This document shows, in pieces, positions 19,549-20,813 of a stretch of DNA of 64,000 nucleotides (its first letter is position 1; every line of letters begins with the position of its first letter). The notes beneath the pieces were generated by a model. That model was not told the origin of the DNA. It saw nothing but the letters and a program-made list of their open reading frames with translations, and ran no database searches. The position numbers and the translations under genes were made by a program. Source of the stretch: an uncultured Mobiluncus sp. (GTDB lineage Bacteria; Actinomycetota; Actinomycetes; Actinomycetales; Actinomycetaceae); assembly GCF_943914685.1 (NCBI RefSeq), contig NZ_CALUCZ010000008.1, positions 4,109-68,108 of the forward strand, read 5' to 3'.

Positions 19549-20715
19549 CTATCGCAAATCCGTTTCGTTTTCGGGGTTATTATCTAGCTTTTTGGCGGCT
19601 TCTGAAGCTTTGTCGAGGAGTATTGCATATCTTTTAGCGGCAGCATCGATGGTGGTTTTAATCTCCCTTATAAGATCTGGAGGTTTGAGAGCCACTATTG
19701 AGTCCGAATATTGCAAAATCCACCACTTCATAGCGGTCAGTTCCGCACGCACTCGCACCAGATAGGTGTCTTTCCGTTTCGTCGGCTCGACCTCAGCATT
19801 GGGAAATGTGCTAAAGACACTGTCGACATGGCCTTCCATGATGAGTTCAACGCCCTTTGCTTCGCCGCTATACATATAGGGTCGTTCTAGAGAATAATTC
19901 ATGAAGTCGAAGTCGCTGCCGTCCCAAGGTATTGCGCCTTCGGCGGGTTCGTTGATACTAATATTTGAAATGCGCTCAATGACCAGATTCAGTACGTTCT
20001 CTTCGTTGATACCGGGTTCGTTACTTGTCAAGAAATAGTAAACGCCCTTTTTGAAAATCAGTCCGTGTGGATACATATTCCGGTACGGCTTTGCGTTGTC
20101 CCAATCGTAGCCGCCTTTGATAGTGAAGTGGCTGTAGTCGAAATTGACGGTTTTATGTTCCGCAATAGCCTGTTCCAGGATTTCAACGGTTCGGCGCACG
20201 CCGGGAAGCAGATGGTCTTCGATGTGATTCACATAACCCTGTGAGAGTCGTTCCGGGCTGACATTTGCCATTAACGCCAGGTTGGTACGAAGTTCTTTGA
20301 GATCTTCAGGATCCAGCCGGGTAGCCAACAGCGCATCAGCCAGGAGACGCATATCTCCGGTTTTCAGAGGTCTTTGTGCGAACCACTCGGTGTCTTTCAC
20401 GCCCTCAGGGCGTAATTCATTTTCCAAGTCTCCAAATTGTTTGACGGTTACCCCAAAAGGGAGGGAACTTCCCAAATTGCGTAGGGCGCGCAGATGAGCC
20501 AGAGCCGTTTTTTCGGTTAGTTTCTGGGGTTTCAACCAGTCAATACCGTATCGCTTAGGCTCGTGGAACGCGGATTCAATCGTAGCTGCGCTGACTCCGT
20601 GTTCAAGAGTGGTTTTCTCCAGCAAGTAGCGGAAGATGAGGAAACTAATATCGCGGCGAGGTCCCGTTGTGTCGCGGGCAGTACGGAGCTTGGAACTTGT
20701 TTTGGTTGCGGTCAC
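19549..20715 (-). CDS. WYL-domain transcriptional regulator (wHTH-WYL-WCX architecture; BrxR/CapW-like).
   Basis: 388 aa. N-terminal wHTH ('DISFLIFRYLLEKTTLEHGVSAATIESAF'). Central WYL-like block ('YPHGLIFKKGVYYFLTS'). C-terminal WCX-like block ('YLVRVRAELTAMKWWILQYSDSIVALKPPDLIREI'). Divergent from the island operon. Confidence 0.6.
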   Translation of the reverse strand: MTATKTSSKLRTARDTTGPRRDISFLIFRYLLEKTTLEHGVSAATIESAFHEPKRYGIDWLKPQKLTEKTALAHLRALRNLGSSLPFGVTVKQFGDLENELRPEGVKDTEWFAQRPLKTGDMRLLADALLATRLDPEDLKELRTNLALMANVSPERLSQGYVNHIEDHLLPGVRRTVEILEQAIAEHKTVNFDYSHFTIKGGYDWDNAKPYRNMYPHGLIFKKGVYYFLTSNEPGINEENVLNLVIERISNISINEPAEGAIPWDGSDFDFMNYSLERPYMYSGEAKGVELIMEGHVDSVFSTFPNAEVEPTKRKDTYLVRVRAELTAMKWWILQYSDSIVALKPPDLIREIKTTIDAAAKRYAILLDKASEAAKKLDNNPENETDLR

Positions 20716-20728
20716 AGCGTTTTCCTTT

Positions 20729-20748
20729 GGGGGCAGTAGTTTTCTACT
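20729..20748. promoter_or_regulatory. Perfect palindrome GGCAGTAG-TTTT-CTACTGCC in the divergent promoter between the WYL regulator and the AAA+ ATPase gene; candidate operator.
   Basis: 8-bp arms with a 4-bp spacer, 15 bp upstream of the WYL start and about 65 bp upstream of the ATPase start. BrxR/CapW-type regulators bind inverted repeats in their own promoters. Confidence 0.4.
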
Positions 20749-20813
20749 GCCTTATTTTAGGCTTCTTTAGAATCGAATTGTTCGTTTCTAGTCAAACCGA
20801 AAAGGGAAAATGA

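What the first reader, a model, noticed from the sequence alone, without database searches (positions are those of the whole stretch)
19549..20760. WYL/WCX regulator with a perfect 8-4-8 palindromic operator in the divergent promoter
The 388-aa minus-strand protein has the wHTH - WYL - WCX layout of BrxR/CapW-type defence regulators. The intergenic region between it and the ATPase gene contains GGCAGTAG-TTTT-CTACTGCC (20729-20748). That is a perfect inverted repeat of the size these regulators bind to repress both themselves and the divergent defence operon. The same GGCAGTAG/CTACTGCC octamers also form the stem of the hairpin repeat at 6410-6443; this may be coincidental but is worth testing.
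Basis: partly seen in the sequence, partly recalled or inferred. Interest (0 to 1): 0.55.

Follow-up and report, generated by a model that had tools for sequence, protein, structure and literature searches.

The report
WYL regulator with conserved promoter dyad
A divergent member of the WYL family of signal-sensing transcription factors lies back-to-back with an ATPase/retron gene cluster, and a 20-bp mirror-image DNA site in the 98-bp gap between them is conserved in relatives, so it is very probably the switch for that cluster; this is a new example of a known kind of regulator, and whether it switches the cluster on or off is still open.

Summary
ORF 19549-20715(-) encodes a 388-aa wHTH / 3-helix-bundle / WYL / WCX protein. 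A perfect 8-4-8 palindrome lies at 20732-20751, 3 nt right of the stated position. It is 16 nt from the regulator's start codon in a 98-bp divergent promoter. Palindromes of this size are common by chance; location and conservation make this one count. Every orthologous locus carries exactly one copy at the same place, under three different cargo architectures, with a symmetric G:C>A:T change in the 71% orthologue. A distant clade (35-39% identity), linked to the same tandem-AAA ATPase, uses a different dyad, CGGAA-N6-TTCCG. That dyad is repeated upstream of the regulator, ATPase and FtsZ-like genes.

The "BrxR/CapW-type repressor" label is not supported. The RWHVR motif is absent and the nearest solved relatives are the activators DriD and PafBC. 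The dyads abut a TAnnnT -10 (the PafBC/SiwR position), and one relative is fused to sigma-70 region 2. I lean slightly towards activation of the operon with autorepression; simple repression remains nearly as likely. The shared octamer at 6410-6443 is coincidental, because that hairpin belongs to a dispersed repeat family. Verdict: new member of a known kind, moderate interest.

The parts
19549..20715 (-). Gene for the 388-aa wHTH / 3-helix-bundle / WYL / WCX transcription factor (GTG start)
   Evidence: ORF. Pfam WCX 23.0 bits (cut-off 23.9) and WYL 21.0 bits (cut-off 21.8), both just under threshold. PADLOC WYL model E = 1.3e-18. Family profile versus PDB: DriD 1e-9, PafC 3.6e-6. AF2 model pLDDT 81. 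Foldseek aligns it full-length to PafBC, DriD and BrxR.
20374..20667 (-). Winged helix-turn-helix domain (aa 17-114). The presumed recognition helix is aa 68-80, EKTALAHLRALRN (20476-20514).
   Evidence: AF2 secondary structure and family alignment. The helix is identical in its DNA-facing part in the 71% orthologue and differs in the distal clade, which uses another dyad.
19951..20205 (-). WYL (Sm-like) domain, aa 171-255. The motif reads VYYFL (aa 225-229). The positions equivalent to DriD R204 and R207 are L242 and V245.
   Evidence: Residue roles come from PMC10853764, PMC10693628 and PMC11662680.
19681..19905 (-). WCX domain (aa 271-345), followed by a long C-terminal helix (aa 346-387; 19555-19680)
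   Evidence: Pfam WCX E = 9.9e-5; AF2. Clade relatives pass the Pfam cut-offs.
20732..20751 (.). Candidate operator: the perfect 8-4-8 dyad GGCAGTAG-TTTT-CTACTGCC. The conserved core is CAGTAG-N4-CTACTG (20734-20749).
   Evidence: There is exactly one copy at the same place in L001-L007. L002/L007 carry a symmetric G:C>A:T change at arm position 7, and L005 has a changed spacer base. Footprint p = 6.5e-6.
20753..20759 (.). Invariant A/T block. On the + strand TATTTT (20753-20758) is the candidate -10 of the operon promoter, 1 nt after the dyad. On the - strand TAAAAT (20759-20754) is the candidate -10 of the regulator's own promoter, with the dyad downstream of it.
   Evidence: Invariant in all orthologues. 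A TAnnnT begins 0-4 nt after the dyad in 5 of 9 non-redundant promoters of the subfamily, against a 3.8% background. No transcription start data exist, so this is inference.
20768..20773 (+). Second conserved -10-like hexamer, TAGAAT (TACAAT in L002 and L005). It is the alternative -10 for the operon and would centre the dyad near -38.
   Evidence: The sigma-70 consensus scan found no -35/-10 pair in 20600-20900.
20814..23729 (+). First operon gene: a 971-aa protein with an N-terminal domain of about 420 aa that matches no family, followed by two CbbX/SpoVK/EccA-type AAA+ modules. Both Walker A and both Walker B motifs are intact.
   Evidence: An orthologue (40-45% identity; full length in L008 and L009, aa 102-968/971 in L011 and L015) lies next to the WYL gene in distal-clade loci L008, L009, L011 and L015; L020 carries a tandem-AAA protein by Pfam only.
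23770..24603 (+). 277-aa protein of unknown function. It travels with the ATPase and the WYL gene in the RT-less loci L002 and L007 (54% identity).
   Evidence: The single-sequence AF2 model was unusable, pLDDT 34.
24680..24904 (+). Structured non-coding RNA upstream of the RT, the probable retron msr/msd
   Evidence: Fold z-score = -2.9. Candidate a1/a2 repeats lie at 24706-24718 and 24878-24890. In the 4-sequence consensus fold, 11 of 60 pairs keep pairing through changes on both sides.
24905..26083 (+). Retron-type reverse transcriptase (392 aa)
   Evidence: Pfam RVT_1 5e-17. PADLOC RT_III-A 2.5e-102. NCBIfam retron St85 RT 156 bits, below its cut-off of 235.
26094..29821 (+). Co-directional downstream genes: 71 aa, 263 aa, 281 aa (homologues in L008, L009 and L012, plus a weak 29% match in L010), a 243-aa calcineurin-like metallophosphatase (28178-28909), and 286 aa. 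tRNA-Ser follows at 29863-29948.
   Evidence: Membership of a single operon is inferred only from strand and short gaps.

Best explanation
The ORF encodes a dimeric, ligand-sensing wHTH-WYL-WCX transcription factor. Its two wHTH domains bind the dyad CAGTAG-N4-CTACTG, whose half-site centres lie 10-11 bp (one helical turn) apart, in the 98-bp divergent promoter. From this single site it controls two transcription units:
- the rightward operon (tandem-AAA ATPase, 277-aa protein, retron ncRNA and RT, and the downstream genes);
- its own leftward gene.

I estimate that core claim at about 0.8.

On the direction of control I commit, by a small margin, to a PafBC/SiwR/DriD-like mode. The dyad ends 1 nt before a conserved TAnnnT (TATTTT). 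It therefore fills the -14 to -33 stretch of a promoter that has no -35 element. From there the bound, signal-activated factor would help RNA polymerase start the operon. The same site lies downstream of the regulator's own candidate -10 (TAAAAT on the other strand), so binding would throttle its own gene.

The sensed signal is unknown. It may not be the canonical single-stranded DNA, because the two arginines needed for that response in DriD, SiwR and PafBC are L242 and V245 here.

Shown: domain architecture, dyad conservation, and the linkage to the ATPase. Inferred: DNA binding, promoter elements, sign of regulation, ligand, and a defence role for the cargo.
For: Architecture:
- Pfam WCX and WYL just under threshold; PADLOC WYL 1.3e-18.
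- 480 relatives at E <= 1e-3, mostly WYL regulators of about 330 aa.
- The profile hits DriD at 1e-9 and PafC at 3.6e-6.
- AF2 pLDDT 81. Foldseek gives full-length matches to PafBC (8.8e-11), DriD (3e-10) and BrxR (3.6e-6).

Operator:
- It is unique in the window.
- There is exactly one copy, at the same place, in all 7 loci of the clade. Those loci show three cargo architectures: ATPase+277aa+retron (window, L001; L004 is cut off after the start of the 277-aa gene), ATPase+290aa only in another genomic context (L002/L003/L007), and retron only after deletion of the ATPase and 277-aa genes (L005/L006).
- The arms carry a symmetric G:C>A:T change in L002. Footprint p = 6.5e-6.

Distal clade (35-39% identity):
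- It keeps the orthologous ATPase (40-45% identity; full length in L008/L009) and the metallophosphatase (56-71%).
- It carries another dyad, CGGAA-N6-TTCCG, 2-3 times per locus, upstream of the WYL gene, the ATPase and the FtsZ-like gene. L020 has the symmetric variant CGGGA-N6-TCCCG.
- The recognition helix differs between clades in step with the dyad.

Sign of regulation:
- The nearest solved relatives are activators.
- The RWHVR repressor motif is absent (with PMC11662680).
- Dyads abut a TAnnnT in 5 of 9 promoters, against a 3.8% background. SiwR's palindrome lies between -10 and -35, and PafBC acts at -26 (PMC10693628).
- DriD's own 99-bp bidirectional promoter has one site next to the driD start codon, and DriD activates the divergent operon from it (PMC13004042).
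- Relative P0008 (37% identity, same neighbourhood) is fused to sigma-70 region 2, E = 1.5e-14.
Against: - There are no binding, transcription-start or expression data.
- Only about four independent sequences exist in the close clade, so covariation rests on one symmetric change.
- The -10 assignment is ambiguous (TATTTT versus TAGAAT). It was partly chosen after seeing the pattern, so the enrichment p-value is post hoc. L012 does not show the adjacency at one promoter.
- With TAGAAT as the -10, the dyad centre is near -38.5, which matches neither DriD (about -31 by my reading of the promoter oligonucleotides in PMC13004042) nor PafBC (-26).
- The arginine pair essential for activation in DriD, SiwR and PafBC is missing. 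This mapping rests on a profile alignment at about 14% identity.
- The WYL regulators characterised next to defence operons (BrxR, CapW) are repressors (PMC9122601, PMC9122588).
- In the distal clade the regulator's own promoter has the same geometry as its targets, which fits plain negative autoregulation well.
- The sigma fusion is a single metagenomic protein seen on 2 samples' contigs.
Confidence: 0.45

Rival explanations
1. One reading: a CapW/BrxR-style repressor. The unliganded dimer sits on the dyad, occludes RNA polymerase at both divergent promoters, and is released by a signal such as ssDNA from infection or DNA damage. This de-represses the ATPase/retron operon and the regulator gene.
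For: - Same family architecture.
- The 20-bp dyad fits CapW's 19-24-bp palindromes (PMC9122588).
- The dyad lies between the regulator's candidate -10 and its ribosome-binding site, like BrxR's repeats between PbrxR and brxR (PMC9122601).
- It covers the -35/spacer region of the operon promoter.
- A retron RT in the operon makes a defence context likely.
- In the distal clade the same dyad geometry occurs at the regulator's own promoter and at target promoters, as expected for a negatively autoregulated repressor.
- Loss of the activation-critical arginines is no obstacle to a repressor that responds to a different cue.
Against: - The RWHVR motif and the flanking ssDNA-contact arginines that define the CapW/BrxR clade are absent; the sequence reads VYYFL (with PMC11662680).
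- BrxR is only a weak profile hit, E = 0.055, and no CapW chain is named among the Foldseek hits with E <= 0.001.
- The dyads abut the -10 rather than overlapping it, whereas CapW sites overlap the -10.
- A sigma-region-2 fusion in a relative makes little sense for a pure repressor.
Confidence: 0.35
2. The palindrome acts as RNA rather than as a protein-binding site. Either it is a + strand intrinsic terminator or insulator (hairpin plus U-rich tail) that shields the operon from read-through out of pntAB, or it is a stabilising 5'-UTR hairpin on the regulator's mRNA.
For: - The + strand RNA folds to -15.7 kcal/mol (z = -4.4) and is followed by UUAUUUU. The minus-strand version folds to -14.1 kcal/mol just upstream of the ribosome-binding site.
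- A compensatory stem change plus a conserved T-tract is also what a terminator would show.
Against: - pntB already has a -34.9 kcal/mol terminator at 19438-19477.
- In L002/L007 no co-directional gene lies upstream of the hairpin, and there the hairpin reaches only -8.8 kcal/mol.
- The equivalent dyads of the distal clade form only 5-bp stems (-5.7 kcal/mol, z = -1.6), yet recur upstream of three different genes per locus.
- If TAAAAT is the regulator's -10, its transcript would start inside the dyad and could not form the hairpin (inference).
Confidence: 0.05
3. The palindrome is not the regulator's site. It is conserved only because the whole short promoter region is conserved among close relatives, or another factor binds it. 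The WYL protein then acts elsewhere, or acts mainly as a sensor subunit of the ATPase system rather than as a transcription factor.
For: - Perfect 8-bp-arm palindromes are common by chance: 17 in the window against about 10 expected.
- The close clade is shallow; L004, L001 and L005 are 85-95% identical in protein.
- The WYL gene is tied to the ATPase gene in most of both clades, whatever the orientation (L005/L006 have lost the ATPase). That would also suit a protein-protein partnership.
Against: - In the 71% orthologue the flanks have diverged (7/16 and 23/40), while the dyad core is 16/16 with a symmetric arm change.
- Dyad sequence and recognition helix change together between clades.
- The distal-clade dyad is repeated at the promoters of the linked genes. 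I calculate about 0.016 exact matches expected per 17-kb locus; 2 were found, plus a third with one mismatch.
- The protein keeps a complete wHTH.
Confidence: 0.1

Closest known systems
DriD (Caulobacter crescentus), including its own driD/CCNA_03891 bidirectional promoter
   Same: - Best solved sequence relative (profile E = 1e-9) and a top fold match.
- Homodimeric wHTH-3HB-WYL-WCX protein.
- Pseudo-palindromic site of 20-21 bp with an A/T-rich centre and half-sites about 11 bp apart.
- Sites lie about 17 nt upstream of the driD start codon in homologues (PMC10853764).
- One site in a 99-bp bidirectional promoter serves the divergent operon (PMC13004042).
   Different: - About 14% identity.
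- The equivalents of the DriD ssDNA-contact residues R204 and R207 are L242 and V245 here.
- The spacing from site to -10 differs: about 7 nt in DriD (my reading of the published promoter sequences), against 1 or 16 nt here.
- DriD controls a DNA-damage regulon in an alphaproteobacterium, not an island cargo.
- Activation here is untested.
SiwR and PafBC (Actinobacteria, WYL activators acting at the -26 region)
   Same: - Same phylum.
- SiwR is a homodimer that binds a 19-bp imperfect palindrome between -10 and -35, in the roughly 60-bp region between siwR and its adjacent target operon (PMC10693628).
- PafBC is the top Foldseek hit.
- Here the dyad ends 1 nt before a TAnnnT.
   Different: - The R204/R207 pair essential for SiwR activation is absent here.
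- PafBC is a heterodimer-like fusion that binds a non-palindromic motif, and only together with RNA polymerase.
- Their targets are DNA-damage or oxidative-stress genes.
- No transcription start data exist here.
BrxR (BREX-associated WYL repressor)
   Same: - wHTH-WYL-WCX dimer encoded at the head of defence islands.
- It binds inverted repeats between its own promoter and its gene.
- The family is associated with many different defence cargos (PMC9122601).
- It is a significant fold match.
   Different: - BrxR sites are longer (11-5-11 and 10-5-10).
- The RWHVR motif is absent here.
- The profile similarity is weak, E = 0.055.
- BrxR is encoded in the same orientation as its cargo.
CapW (CBASS-associated WYL repressor)
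   Same: - Palindromic operators of 19-24 bp in the promoter of a defence operon.
- The regulator is encoded upstream of its cargo (PMC9122588).
   Different: - CapW operators overlap the -10.
- CapW has the RWHVR motif and ssDNA-contact arginines (PMC11662680), which are absent here.
- No CapW chain is named among the fold hits with E <= 0.001.
WYL-associated protease-less type XI-like retrons ('TXI_C2like', bioRxiv 10.64898/2026.05.14.725207)
   Same: A computational report of retron RTs that recur next to PafBC-like WYL proteins in flexible arrangements.
   Different: - Those loci are from gut Bacteroidota and Bacillota and have type XI-like RTs.
- Here the RT scores best as type III-A-like and the loci with named organisms are Actinomycetaceae/Bifidobacterium.
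- The WYL gene here is tied more closely to the ATPase than to the RT.
- That study defined no operator.

Membership tests
wHTH-WYL-WCX transcription factors (broad family) | [quoted passage not shown] | tested here: met
   The AF2 model shows helices 17-34, 43-51 and 68-80 plus a beta wing. Foldseek alignments to DriD, PafBC and BrxR span 364-396 columns. Relatives give weak HTH_5/HTH_20/HTH_24 hits. The window protein itself has no Pfam HTH hit.
wHTH-WYL-WCX transcription factors (broad family) | Central WYL (Sm-like) domain | tested here: met
   PADLOC WYL 1.3e-18. Pfam WYL E = 3.4e-4, 21.0 bits against a cut-off of 21.8. The profile aligns to the DriD WYL-WCX region at 1e-9. Clade relatives pass the Pfam cut-off.
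wHTH-WYL-WCX transcription factors (broad family) | C-terminal WCX dimerisation domain | tested here: met
   Pfam WCX E = 9.9e-5, 23.0 bits against a cut-off of 23.9. Relatives score 32-39 bits. PafC and PafBC match in the WCX region.
wHTH-WYL-WCX transcription factors (broad family) | Homodimer that binds a dyad-symmetric site near its own gene | tested here: inconclusive
   Comparative evidence only: a conserved dyad 16 nt from the start codon, a symmetric arm change, and clade-level co-variation of helix and dyad. Dimerisation and binding cannot be tested with these tools.
CapW/BrxR-type repressors | Highly conserved RWHVR motif with flanking ssDNA-contact arginines (PMC11662680) | tested here: not met
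   The equivalent stretch is V225-Y226-Y227-F228-L229 in the window protein, and (V/I/F/R/D)YY(F/L/A)L across the clade.
CapW/BrxR-type repressors | Closest sequence or fold relatives are CapW or BrxR | tested here: not met
   BrxR 7qfz scores E = 0.055 by profile, against DriD at 1e-9. Foldseek gives BrxR 3.6e-6, against PafBC 8.8e-11 and DriD 3e-10, and names no CapW chain among the hits with E <= 0.001.
CapW/BrxR-type repressors | Represses the adjacent defence operon and itself; released by ssDNA | not testable with these tools
   This needs reporter, EMSA and ligand assays.
CapW/BrxR-type repressors | Encoded next to a phage-defence system | tested here: met
   A retron-type RT (PADLOC RT_III-A 2.5e-102) with a conserved structured ncRNA lies in the divergent gene string. 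The first two genes of that string belong to no known defence family.
DriD/PafBC/SiwR-type activators | Closest solved relatives by sequence and fold | tested here: met
DriD/PafBC/SiwR-type activators | Arginine pair on the WYL beta-strand (DriD R204/R207; SiwR R204/R207) required for activation | tested here: not met
   The profile alignment maps them to L242 and V245. The R207 equivalent is absent across the compared subfamily members P0006-P0008, while P0006 keeps an Arg at the R204-equivalent position (PMC10853764, PMC10693628). The alignment is at about 14% identity, so it is moderately reliable. R212 and K223 match DriD R178 and R189.
DriD/PafBC/SiwR-type activators | Site placed at a fixed position just upstream of the -10, in a promoter without a -35 element | tested here: inconclusive
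   The dyad ends 1 nt before TATTTT. A TAnnnT begins 0-4 nt after the dyad in 5 of 9 promoters, against a 3.8% background. No sigma-70 -35/-10 pair was found. However, no transcription start is known and TAGAAT is an alternative -10.
Retron (the cargo, not the finding itself) | Retron-clade RT preceded by a structured msr/msd ncRNA, plus an effector | tested here: inconclusive
   The RT criterion is met. The ncRNA is structured and covaries. No PRTase-type effector expected for type III (PMC7736814) was recognised among the neighbours. msDNA production is not testable here.

The most novel reading that the evidence does not exclude
This WYL subfamily may not be a generic island regulator. It could be the dedicated sensor and promoter-specificity factor of an undescribed multi-gene system in Actinomycetaceae and Bifidobacterium. 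That system comprises a tandem CbbX-like AAA+ ATPase with a novel N-terminal domain of about 400 aa, a metallophosphatase, a small FtsZ/tubulin-like GTPase and a 281-aa protein, with or without a retron.

In this reading the wHTH dimer binds a dyad abutting the -10 and stands in for sigma region 4 at promoters that lack a -35 element. The natural fusion of a family member to sigma-70 region 2 would be the one-polypeptide version of that arrangement. The factor would respond to a ligand other than canonical ssDNA, because the key arginines are lost.
Probability: 0.2. Interest if true: 0.7.

Novelty: new member of a known kind. Interest (0 to 1): 0.42.

Why it matters
WYL regulators are emerging as the switches that keep costly or toxic immune operons in check. 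The characterised examples split into repressors (BrxR, CapW) and activators (DriD, PafBC, SiwR).

This locus offers a compact, testable case from a poorly studied group of Actinomycetota:
- a 98-bp divergent promoter with a single, clearly defined dyad;
- natural variants in which the same regulator and dyad head three different cargos;
- a sister clade with a different dyad repeated at several promoters.

Together these give ready-made specificity swaps. The protein lacks the hallmark residues of both characterised groups, so finding its ligand and its sign of regulation would widen the rules for the family. The conserved partnership with an uncharacterised tandem AAA+ ATPase also points to a possible new system.

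If it proves to be a plain repressor of a retron island, it is an ordinary addition to a known class.

Tried and rejected
- **Link to the 6410-6443 hairpin: rejected.** It is one of three copies of a dispersed palindromic repeat (centres near 6427, 30166 and 31620). The core AGCTGCCA-ATAA-TGGCAGCT is invariant and the outer stems vary with compensation, so most of the shared octamer lies in the variable part.
- **Extra operator copies in the window: none.** The best other match to the 7-4-7 core has 3 mismatches, at chance level.
- **Sigma-70 consensus promoter scan of 20600-20900: no promoter found.** The scan also missed the palindrome as a terminator, probably because G-T extension of the stem uses up the T-tail (my inference).
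- **Word-indexed homologue searches: thin.** They returned only 5 and 10 proteins.
- **Exact-pattern scan for the dyad plus -10 block in viral contigs: no hits**.
- **tblastn against phage and plasmid collections: only remote matches to the WYL domain**.
- **Pfam, PHROGs, PADLOC and NCBIfam at lenient thresholds:** nothing useful for the 277-, 71-, 263-, 281- and 286-aa proteins or for the ATPase N-terminal domain.
- **More distant WYL relatives (P0009, P0010; 32-33% identity):** they lie in unrelated housekeeping contexts. The ATPase linkage is therefore confined to the subfamily at or above about 34% identity.
- **DriD-like site spacing: does not hold exactly.** Site-to--10 spacing is about 7 nt in DriD, against 1 or 16 nt here.
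Full report
**1. What is in the sequence**

The minus-strand ORF 19549-20715 (GTG start, 388 aa) is as described. An AGGA ribosome-binding site lies 7 nt upstream of the GTG. The 71% orthologue has ATG at the same codon, so the start is secure.

The perfect palindrome GGCAGTAG-TTTT-CTACTGCC exists, but at 20732-20751, 3 nt to the right of the stated coordinates. It lies in the 98-nt gap between the regulator's start (20715) and the ATG of a 971-aa ATPase gene (20814). 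It is 16 nt from the former and 62 nt from the latter.

It is the only such site in the window. Perfect 8-bp-arm palindromes are not rare, however. The window has 17, against 10.0 +/- 2.5 in shuffles. The palindrome alone therefore proves nothing.

**2. The protein**

- Pfam gives WCX (E = 9.9e-5, 23.0 bits, cut-off 23.9) and WYL (E = 3.4e-4, 21.0 bits, cut-off 21.8), both just under threshold.
- A PADLOC WYL model scores 1.3e-18.
- An exhaustive HMMER search of 1.84 billion representatives finds 480 relatives at E <= 1e-3 but only 4 below 1e-30. Most are WYL regulators of about 330 aa that align from residue ~105 onwards.
- A profile of the family hits the solved structures of DriD (1e-9), PafC (3.6e-6) and PafBC. 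BrxR scores only 0.055. The single sequence hits nothing.
- An AlphaFold2 model (pLDDT 81) shows five parts: a wHTH (aa 17-114, recognition helix 68-80), a helical bundle (119-157), a WYL beta domain (171-255), WCX (271-345) and a long C-terminal helix.
- Foldseek against the PDB aligns the whole length to PafBC (8.8e-11), DriD (3e-10), WYL1 and BrxR (3.6e-6).

The wHTH-WYL-WCX reading is therefore right. The protein is not of the CapW/BrxR type in the strict sense:
- The RWHVR motif that characterises those repressors (PMC11662680) reads VYYFL here.
- The two arginines on the neighbouring strand map to L242 and V245. They contact ssDNA in DriD and are required for activation in SiwR and PafBC (PMC10853764, PMC10693628).

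The protein thus lacks the hallmark ligand-site residues of both characterised groups. Its effector should be treated as unknown.

**3. Surroundings**

The regulator opens a low-G+C island (about 0.43-0.56, against about 0.60 in the flanks). The island lies between pntB and a tRNA-Ser gene at 29863-29948.

All on the + strand and closely spaced come:
- a 971-aa protein with an uncharacterised N-terminal domain of about 420 aa and two CbbX/SpoVK/EccA-type AAA+ modules with intact Walker motifs;
- a 277-aa protein with no detectable family;
- a roughly 300-nt structured region;
- a retron-type RT (PADLOC RT_III-A 2.5e-102);
- proteins of 71, 263 and 281 aa;
- a calcineurin-like metallophosphatase;
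- a 286-aa protein.

The region before the RT folds well (z = -2.9). It is conserved with the 51%-identical RT locus L012, and 11 of 60 predicted pairs keep pairing through changes on both sides. This fits a retron msr/msd RNA.

**4. Is the palindrome conserved upstream of orthologues?**

Yes. The family is rare; word-indexed searches gave five proteins. Their contigs are nevertheless informative. Every locus of the clade has exactly one CAGTAG-N4-CTACTG, at the same place. The cargo differs:

| Loci | Protein identity | Cargo downstream of the dyad |
|---|---|---|
| window, L001 (L004 is truncated after the start of the 277-aa gene) | 88-100% | ATPase + 277 aa + retron string |
| L002, L003, L007 (Arcanobacterium sp. 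S3PF19) | 71% | ATPase + 290 aa only, in a different chromosomal context |
| L005, L006 | 85% | retron ncRNA and RT directly |

In L005 and L006 the ATPase gene is reduced to ATG-TAA. Most of the 277-aa gene has been deleted between short TCTTC repeats. As a result the same promoter and dyad now abut the retron ncRNA and RT.

In the 71% orthologue the arms read ACAGTAG/CTACTGT, a symmetric G:C to A:T change at arm position 7. The outermost pair is lost. In L005 one spacer base differs.

Against that orthologue:
- the 16-bp core is 16/16 and the next 22 nt are 20/22;
- the 16 nt between dyad and start codon are 7/16;
- the rest of the spacer is 23/40 and the first coding bases are 16/26;
- Fisher p = 6.5e-6.

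**5. A sister clade strengthens the case**

Relatives at 35-39% identity occur in Schaalia, Gleimia, Bifidobacterium tsurumiense, Arcanobacterium hippocoleae and metagenomes. They pass the Pfam WYL and WCX cut-offs.

They lie next to orthologues of the same genes:
- the ATPase (43% identity over the full length);
- the metallophosphatase (56-71%);
- the 281-aa protein;
- in L012, the RT.

They also have a 198-aa FtsZ/tubulin-like GTPase. Gene orders and orientations differ from the window.

They lack the window's dyad but carry another one, CGGAA-N6-TTCCG, two or three times per locus:
- upstream of the regulator gene;
- upstream of the ATPase gene (L009 12784, L011 12478, L015 4198);
- in the promoter region of the FtsZ-like gene, divergent from the metallophosphatase gene in L009 (L008 6092; L009 7070 and L012 6445, each with one mismatch).

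I calculate about 0.016 exact matches expected by chance per 17-kb locus. L020 has the symmetric variant CGGGA-N6-TCCCG before its ATPase gene.

The presumed recognition helix changes in step with the dyad:

| Clade or locus | Recognition helix | Dyad |
|---|---|---|
| window clade | TEKTALAHLRA | GCAGTAG-N4-CTACTGC |
| L008, L009 | SERT(A/V)REYLH | CGGAA-N6-TTCCG |
| L020 | SEKPIRAHLEE | CGGGA-N6-TCCCG |

Half-site centres are 10-11 bp apart in all of them, as in DriD's CGAC-N7-GTCG (PMC10853764). This is the strongest in-silico support available that these dyads are the regulators' operators, and that the ATPase gene is a conserved target.

**6. How it most likely works, and what is not settled**

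The block immediately right of the dyad, TTATTTTAGGC, is invariant. It offers TATTTT on the + strand, 1 nt after the dyad, and TAAAAT on the minus strand. A second conserved hexamer, TAGAAT/TACAAT, lies 16 nt after the dyad. No sigma-70-type -35/-10 pair is present.

Across the subfamily, a strict TAnnnT begins 0-4 nt after the dyad, in the direction of the downstream gene, in 5 of 9 non-redundant promoters. The background is 3.8% (binomial p about 1e-5). The test is post hoc, and L012 is an exception at one promoter.

If TATTTT is the -10, the dyad occupies -14 to -33 of a promoter without a -35 element. Comparable published geometries are:
- SiwR's 19-bp palindrome lies between -10 and -35, and PafBC acts at -26 (PMC10693628).
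- DriD sits where the -35 would be (PMC13004042).
- CapW's operators overlap the -10 (PMC9122588).
- BrxR's operators lie downstream of the promoter (PMC9122601).

DriD's own 99-bp bidirectional promoter has a single site next to the driD start codon, and DriD activates the divergent operon from it (PMC13004042). That layout resembles this one, although the site-to--10 spacing does not match exactly.

One family member, P0008 (37% identity; same ATPase and metallophosphatase neighbourhood; seen on contigs from two samples), is a wHTH-WYL-WCX protein. A linker of about 110 aa joins it to sigma-70 region 2 (Pfam 1.5e-14), and it has no region 4. A dyad abutting a -10 is what such a chimera would need.

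These points tilt me towards activation of the operon combined with autorepression. Arguments against:
- The regulators characterised next to defence operons are repressors.
- The activation-critical arginines are missing.
- In the sister clade the regulator's own promoter looks like its targets, which suits a plain autorepressor.

My estimates are:

| Claim | Probability |
|---|---|
| The dyad is the regulator's site | about 0.8 |
| Activation of the operon with autorepression | about 0.45 |
| Repression of both promoters | about 0.35 |
| RNA-level roles (terminator or UTR hairpin) | about 0.05 |
| Not the regulator's site | about 0.1 |

The terminator reading deserves mention because the + strand RNA folds to -15.7 kcal/mol before a U-rich tail. 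It fails on three counts. pntB has its own strong terminator. The 71% orthologue has no co-directional upstream gene, and its hairpin reaches only -8.8 kcal/mol. The sister-clade dyads form only 5-bp stems.

**7. The hairpin at 6410-6443**

It shares GGCAGTAG/CTACTGCC with the operator. It is one of three copies of a palindromic repeat of about 70 nt, centred near 6427, 30166 and 31620. The core AGCTGCCA-ATAA-TGGCAGCT is invariant. The outer stems differ with compensation: GGGCAGT/ACTGCCC, GGGCTGC/GCAGCCC, CCGGGT/ACCCGG. Most of the octamer lies in that variable part, the half-sites are 16 nt apart rather than 4, and the element lies between convergent genes. I treat the resemblance as coincidence.

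**8. Comparison with what is known, and novelty**

[quoted passage not shown] It fails the defining motif of the CapW/BrxR repressor clade, and it fails the arginine pair of the DriD/SiwR/PafBC activators. It is best described as a divergent subfamily.

A regulator with a palindromic site at the head of a defence-like island is a known theme (PMC9122601). A recurrent WYL-retron association has been reported computationally for other retron lineages and phyla (bioRxiv 10.64898/2026.05.14.725207).

What is new here:
- the specific operator;
- the natural cargo variants;
- the conserved partnership with an uncharacterised tandem AAA+ ATPase gene set;
- the sigma-region-2 fusion.

I rate the finding itself as a new member of a known kind, with moderate interest (0.42). 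The more novel reading is a dedicated sigma-4-substituting sensor of an undescribed system. I give it about 0.2 probability, and it would deserve about 0.7 interest if true.

Noticed in passing
window 6393-6462, 30141-30192, 31589-31652: There are three copies of a dispersed palindromic repeat of about 70 nt. The core AGCTGCCA-ATAA-TGGCAGCT is invariant, and the outer stems differ by compensatory changes. Two copies lie just past the tRNA-Ser, at the far end of the low-G+C island. The element looks REP- or MITE-like, and its function is unknown.
   Followed up: partly
L020 5983-7734 (protein P0008): A 37%-identical family member is a natural fusion: wHTH-WYL-WCX, a low-complexity linker of about 110 aa, then sigma-70 region 2, with no region 3 or 4. 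It is the last gene of a co-directional string: DUF6994 protein, metallophosphatase, tandem-AAA ATPase and a 295-aa protein. The dyad CGGGA-N6-TCCCG precedes its ATPase gene.
   Followed up: partly
L008-L015 and L020; window 20814-23729, 27181-28026, 28178-28909: A gene neighbourhood recurs around this WYL subfamily in Actinomycetaceae and Bifidobacterium: a tandem CbbX-like AAA+ ATPase with a novel N-terminal domain, a metallophosphatase, a 281-aa protein and a 198-aa FtsZ/tubulin-like GTPase, with or without a retron RT. Gene order and orientation vary. Apart from the RT, none of these proteins is a confident match to a known defence family in PADLOC (the ATPase gives only weak generic AAA hits).
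   Followed up: partly
L005 1700-2090 and L006, compared with window 20774-24700: These are natural deletion variants. The ATPase ORF is reduced to ATG-TAA, and the 277-aa gene is deleted between short TCTTC repeats. The regulator, dyad and promoter are therefore joined directly to the retron ncRNA and RT.
   Followed up: yes
window 24680-24904; L012 6206-6420: A structured ncRNA lies upstream of the RT. Its stem-loops are conserved, and 11 pairs keep pairing through changes on both sides in the 51%-identical RT locus. The RT scores as type III-A-like, but no PRTase-type effector was recognised among its neighbours.
   Followed up: partly
window 19424-19491: A very strong hairpin (-34.9 kcal/mol) with a T-tract follows pntB. 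It is probably a bidirectional terminator separating pntAB from the 3' end of the regulator gene.
   Followed up: partly
window 19500-32000; tRNA-Ser(GGA) at 29863-29948: G+C drops from about 0.60 to 0.43-0.56 between pntB and the oligopeptide ABC transporter genes, with a tRNA-Ser gene inside the stretch. This is consistent with an acquired island. No integrase or att repeats were looked for.
   Followed up: no
window 4466-6115: A 549-aa protein has a weak C-terminal RAMA (restriction enzyme adenine methylase associated) domain hit, below the Pfam cut-off. It may be another defence-related gene upstream of the 6410 hairpin.
   Followed up: no
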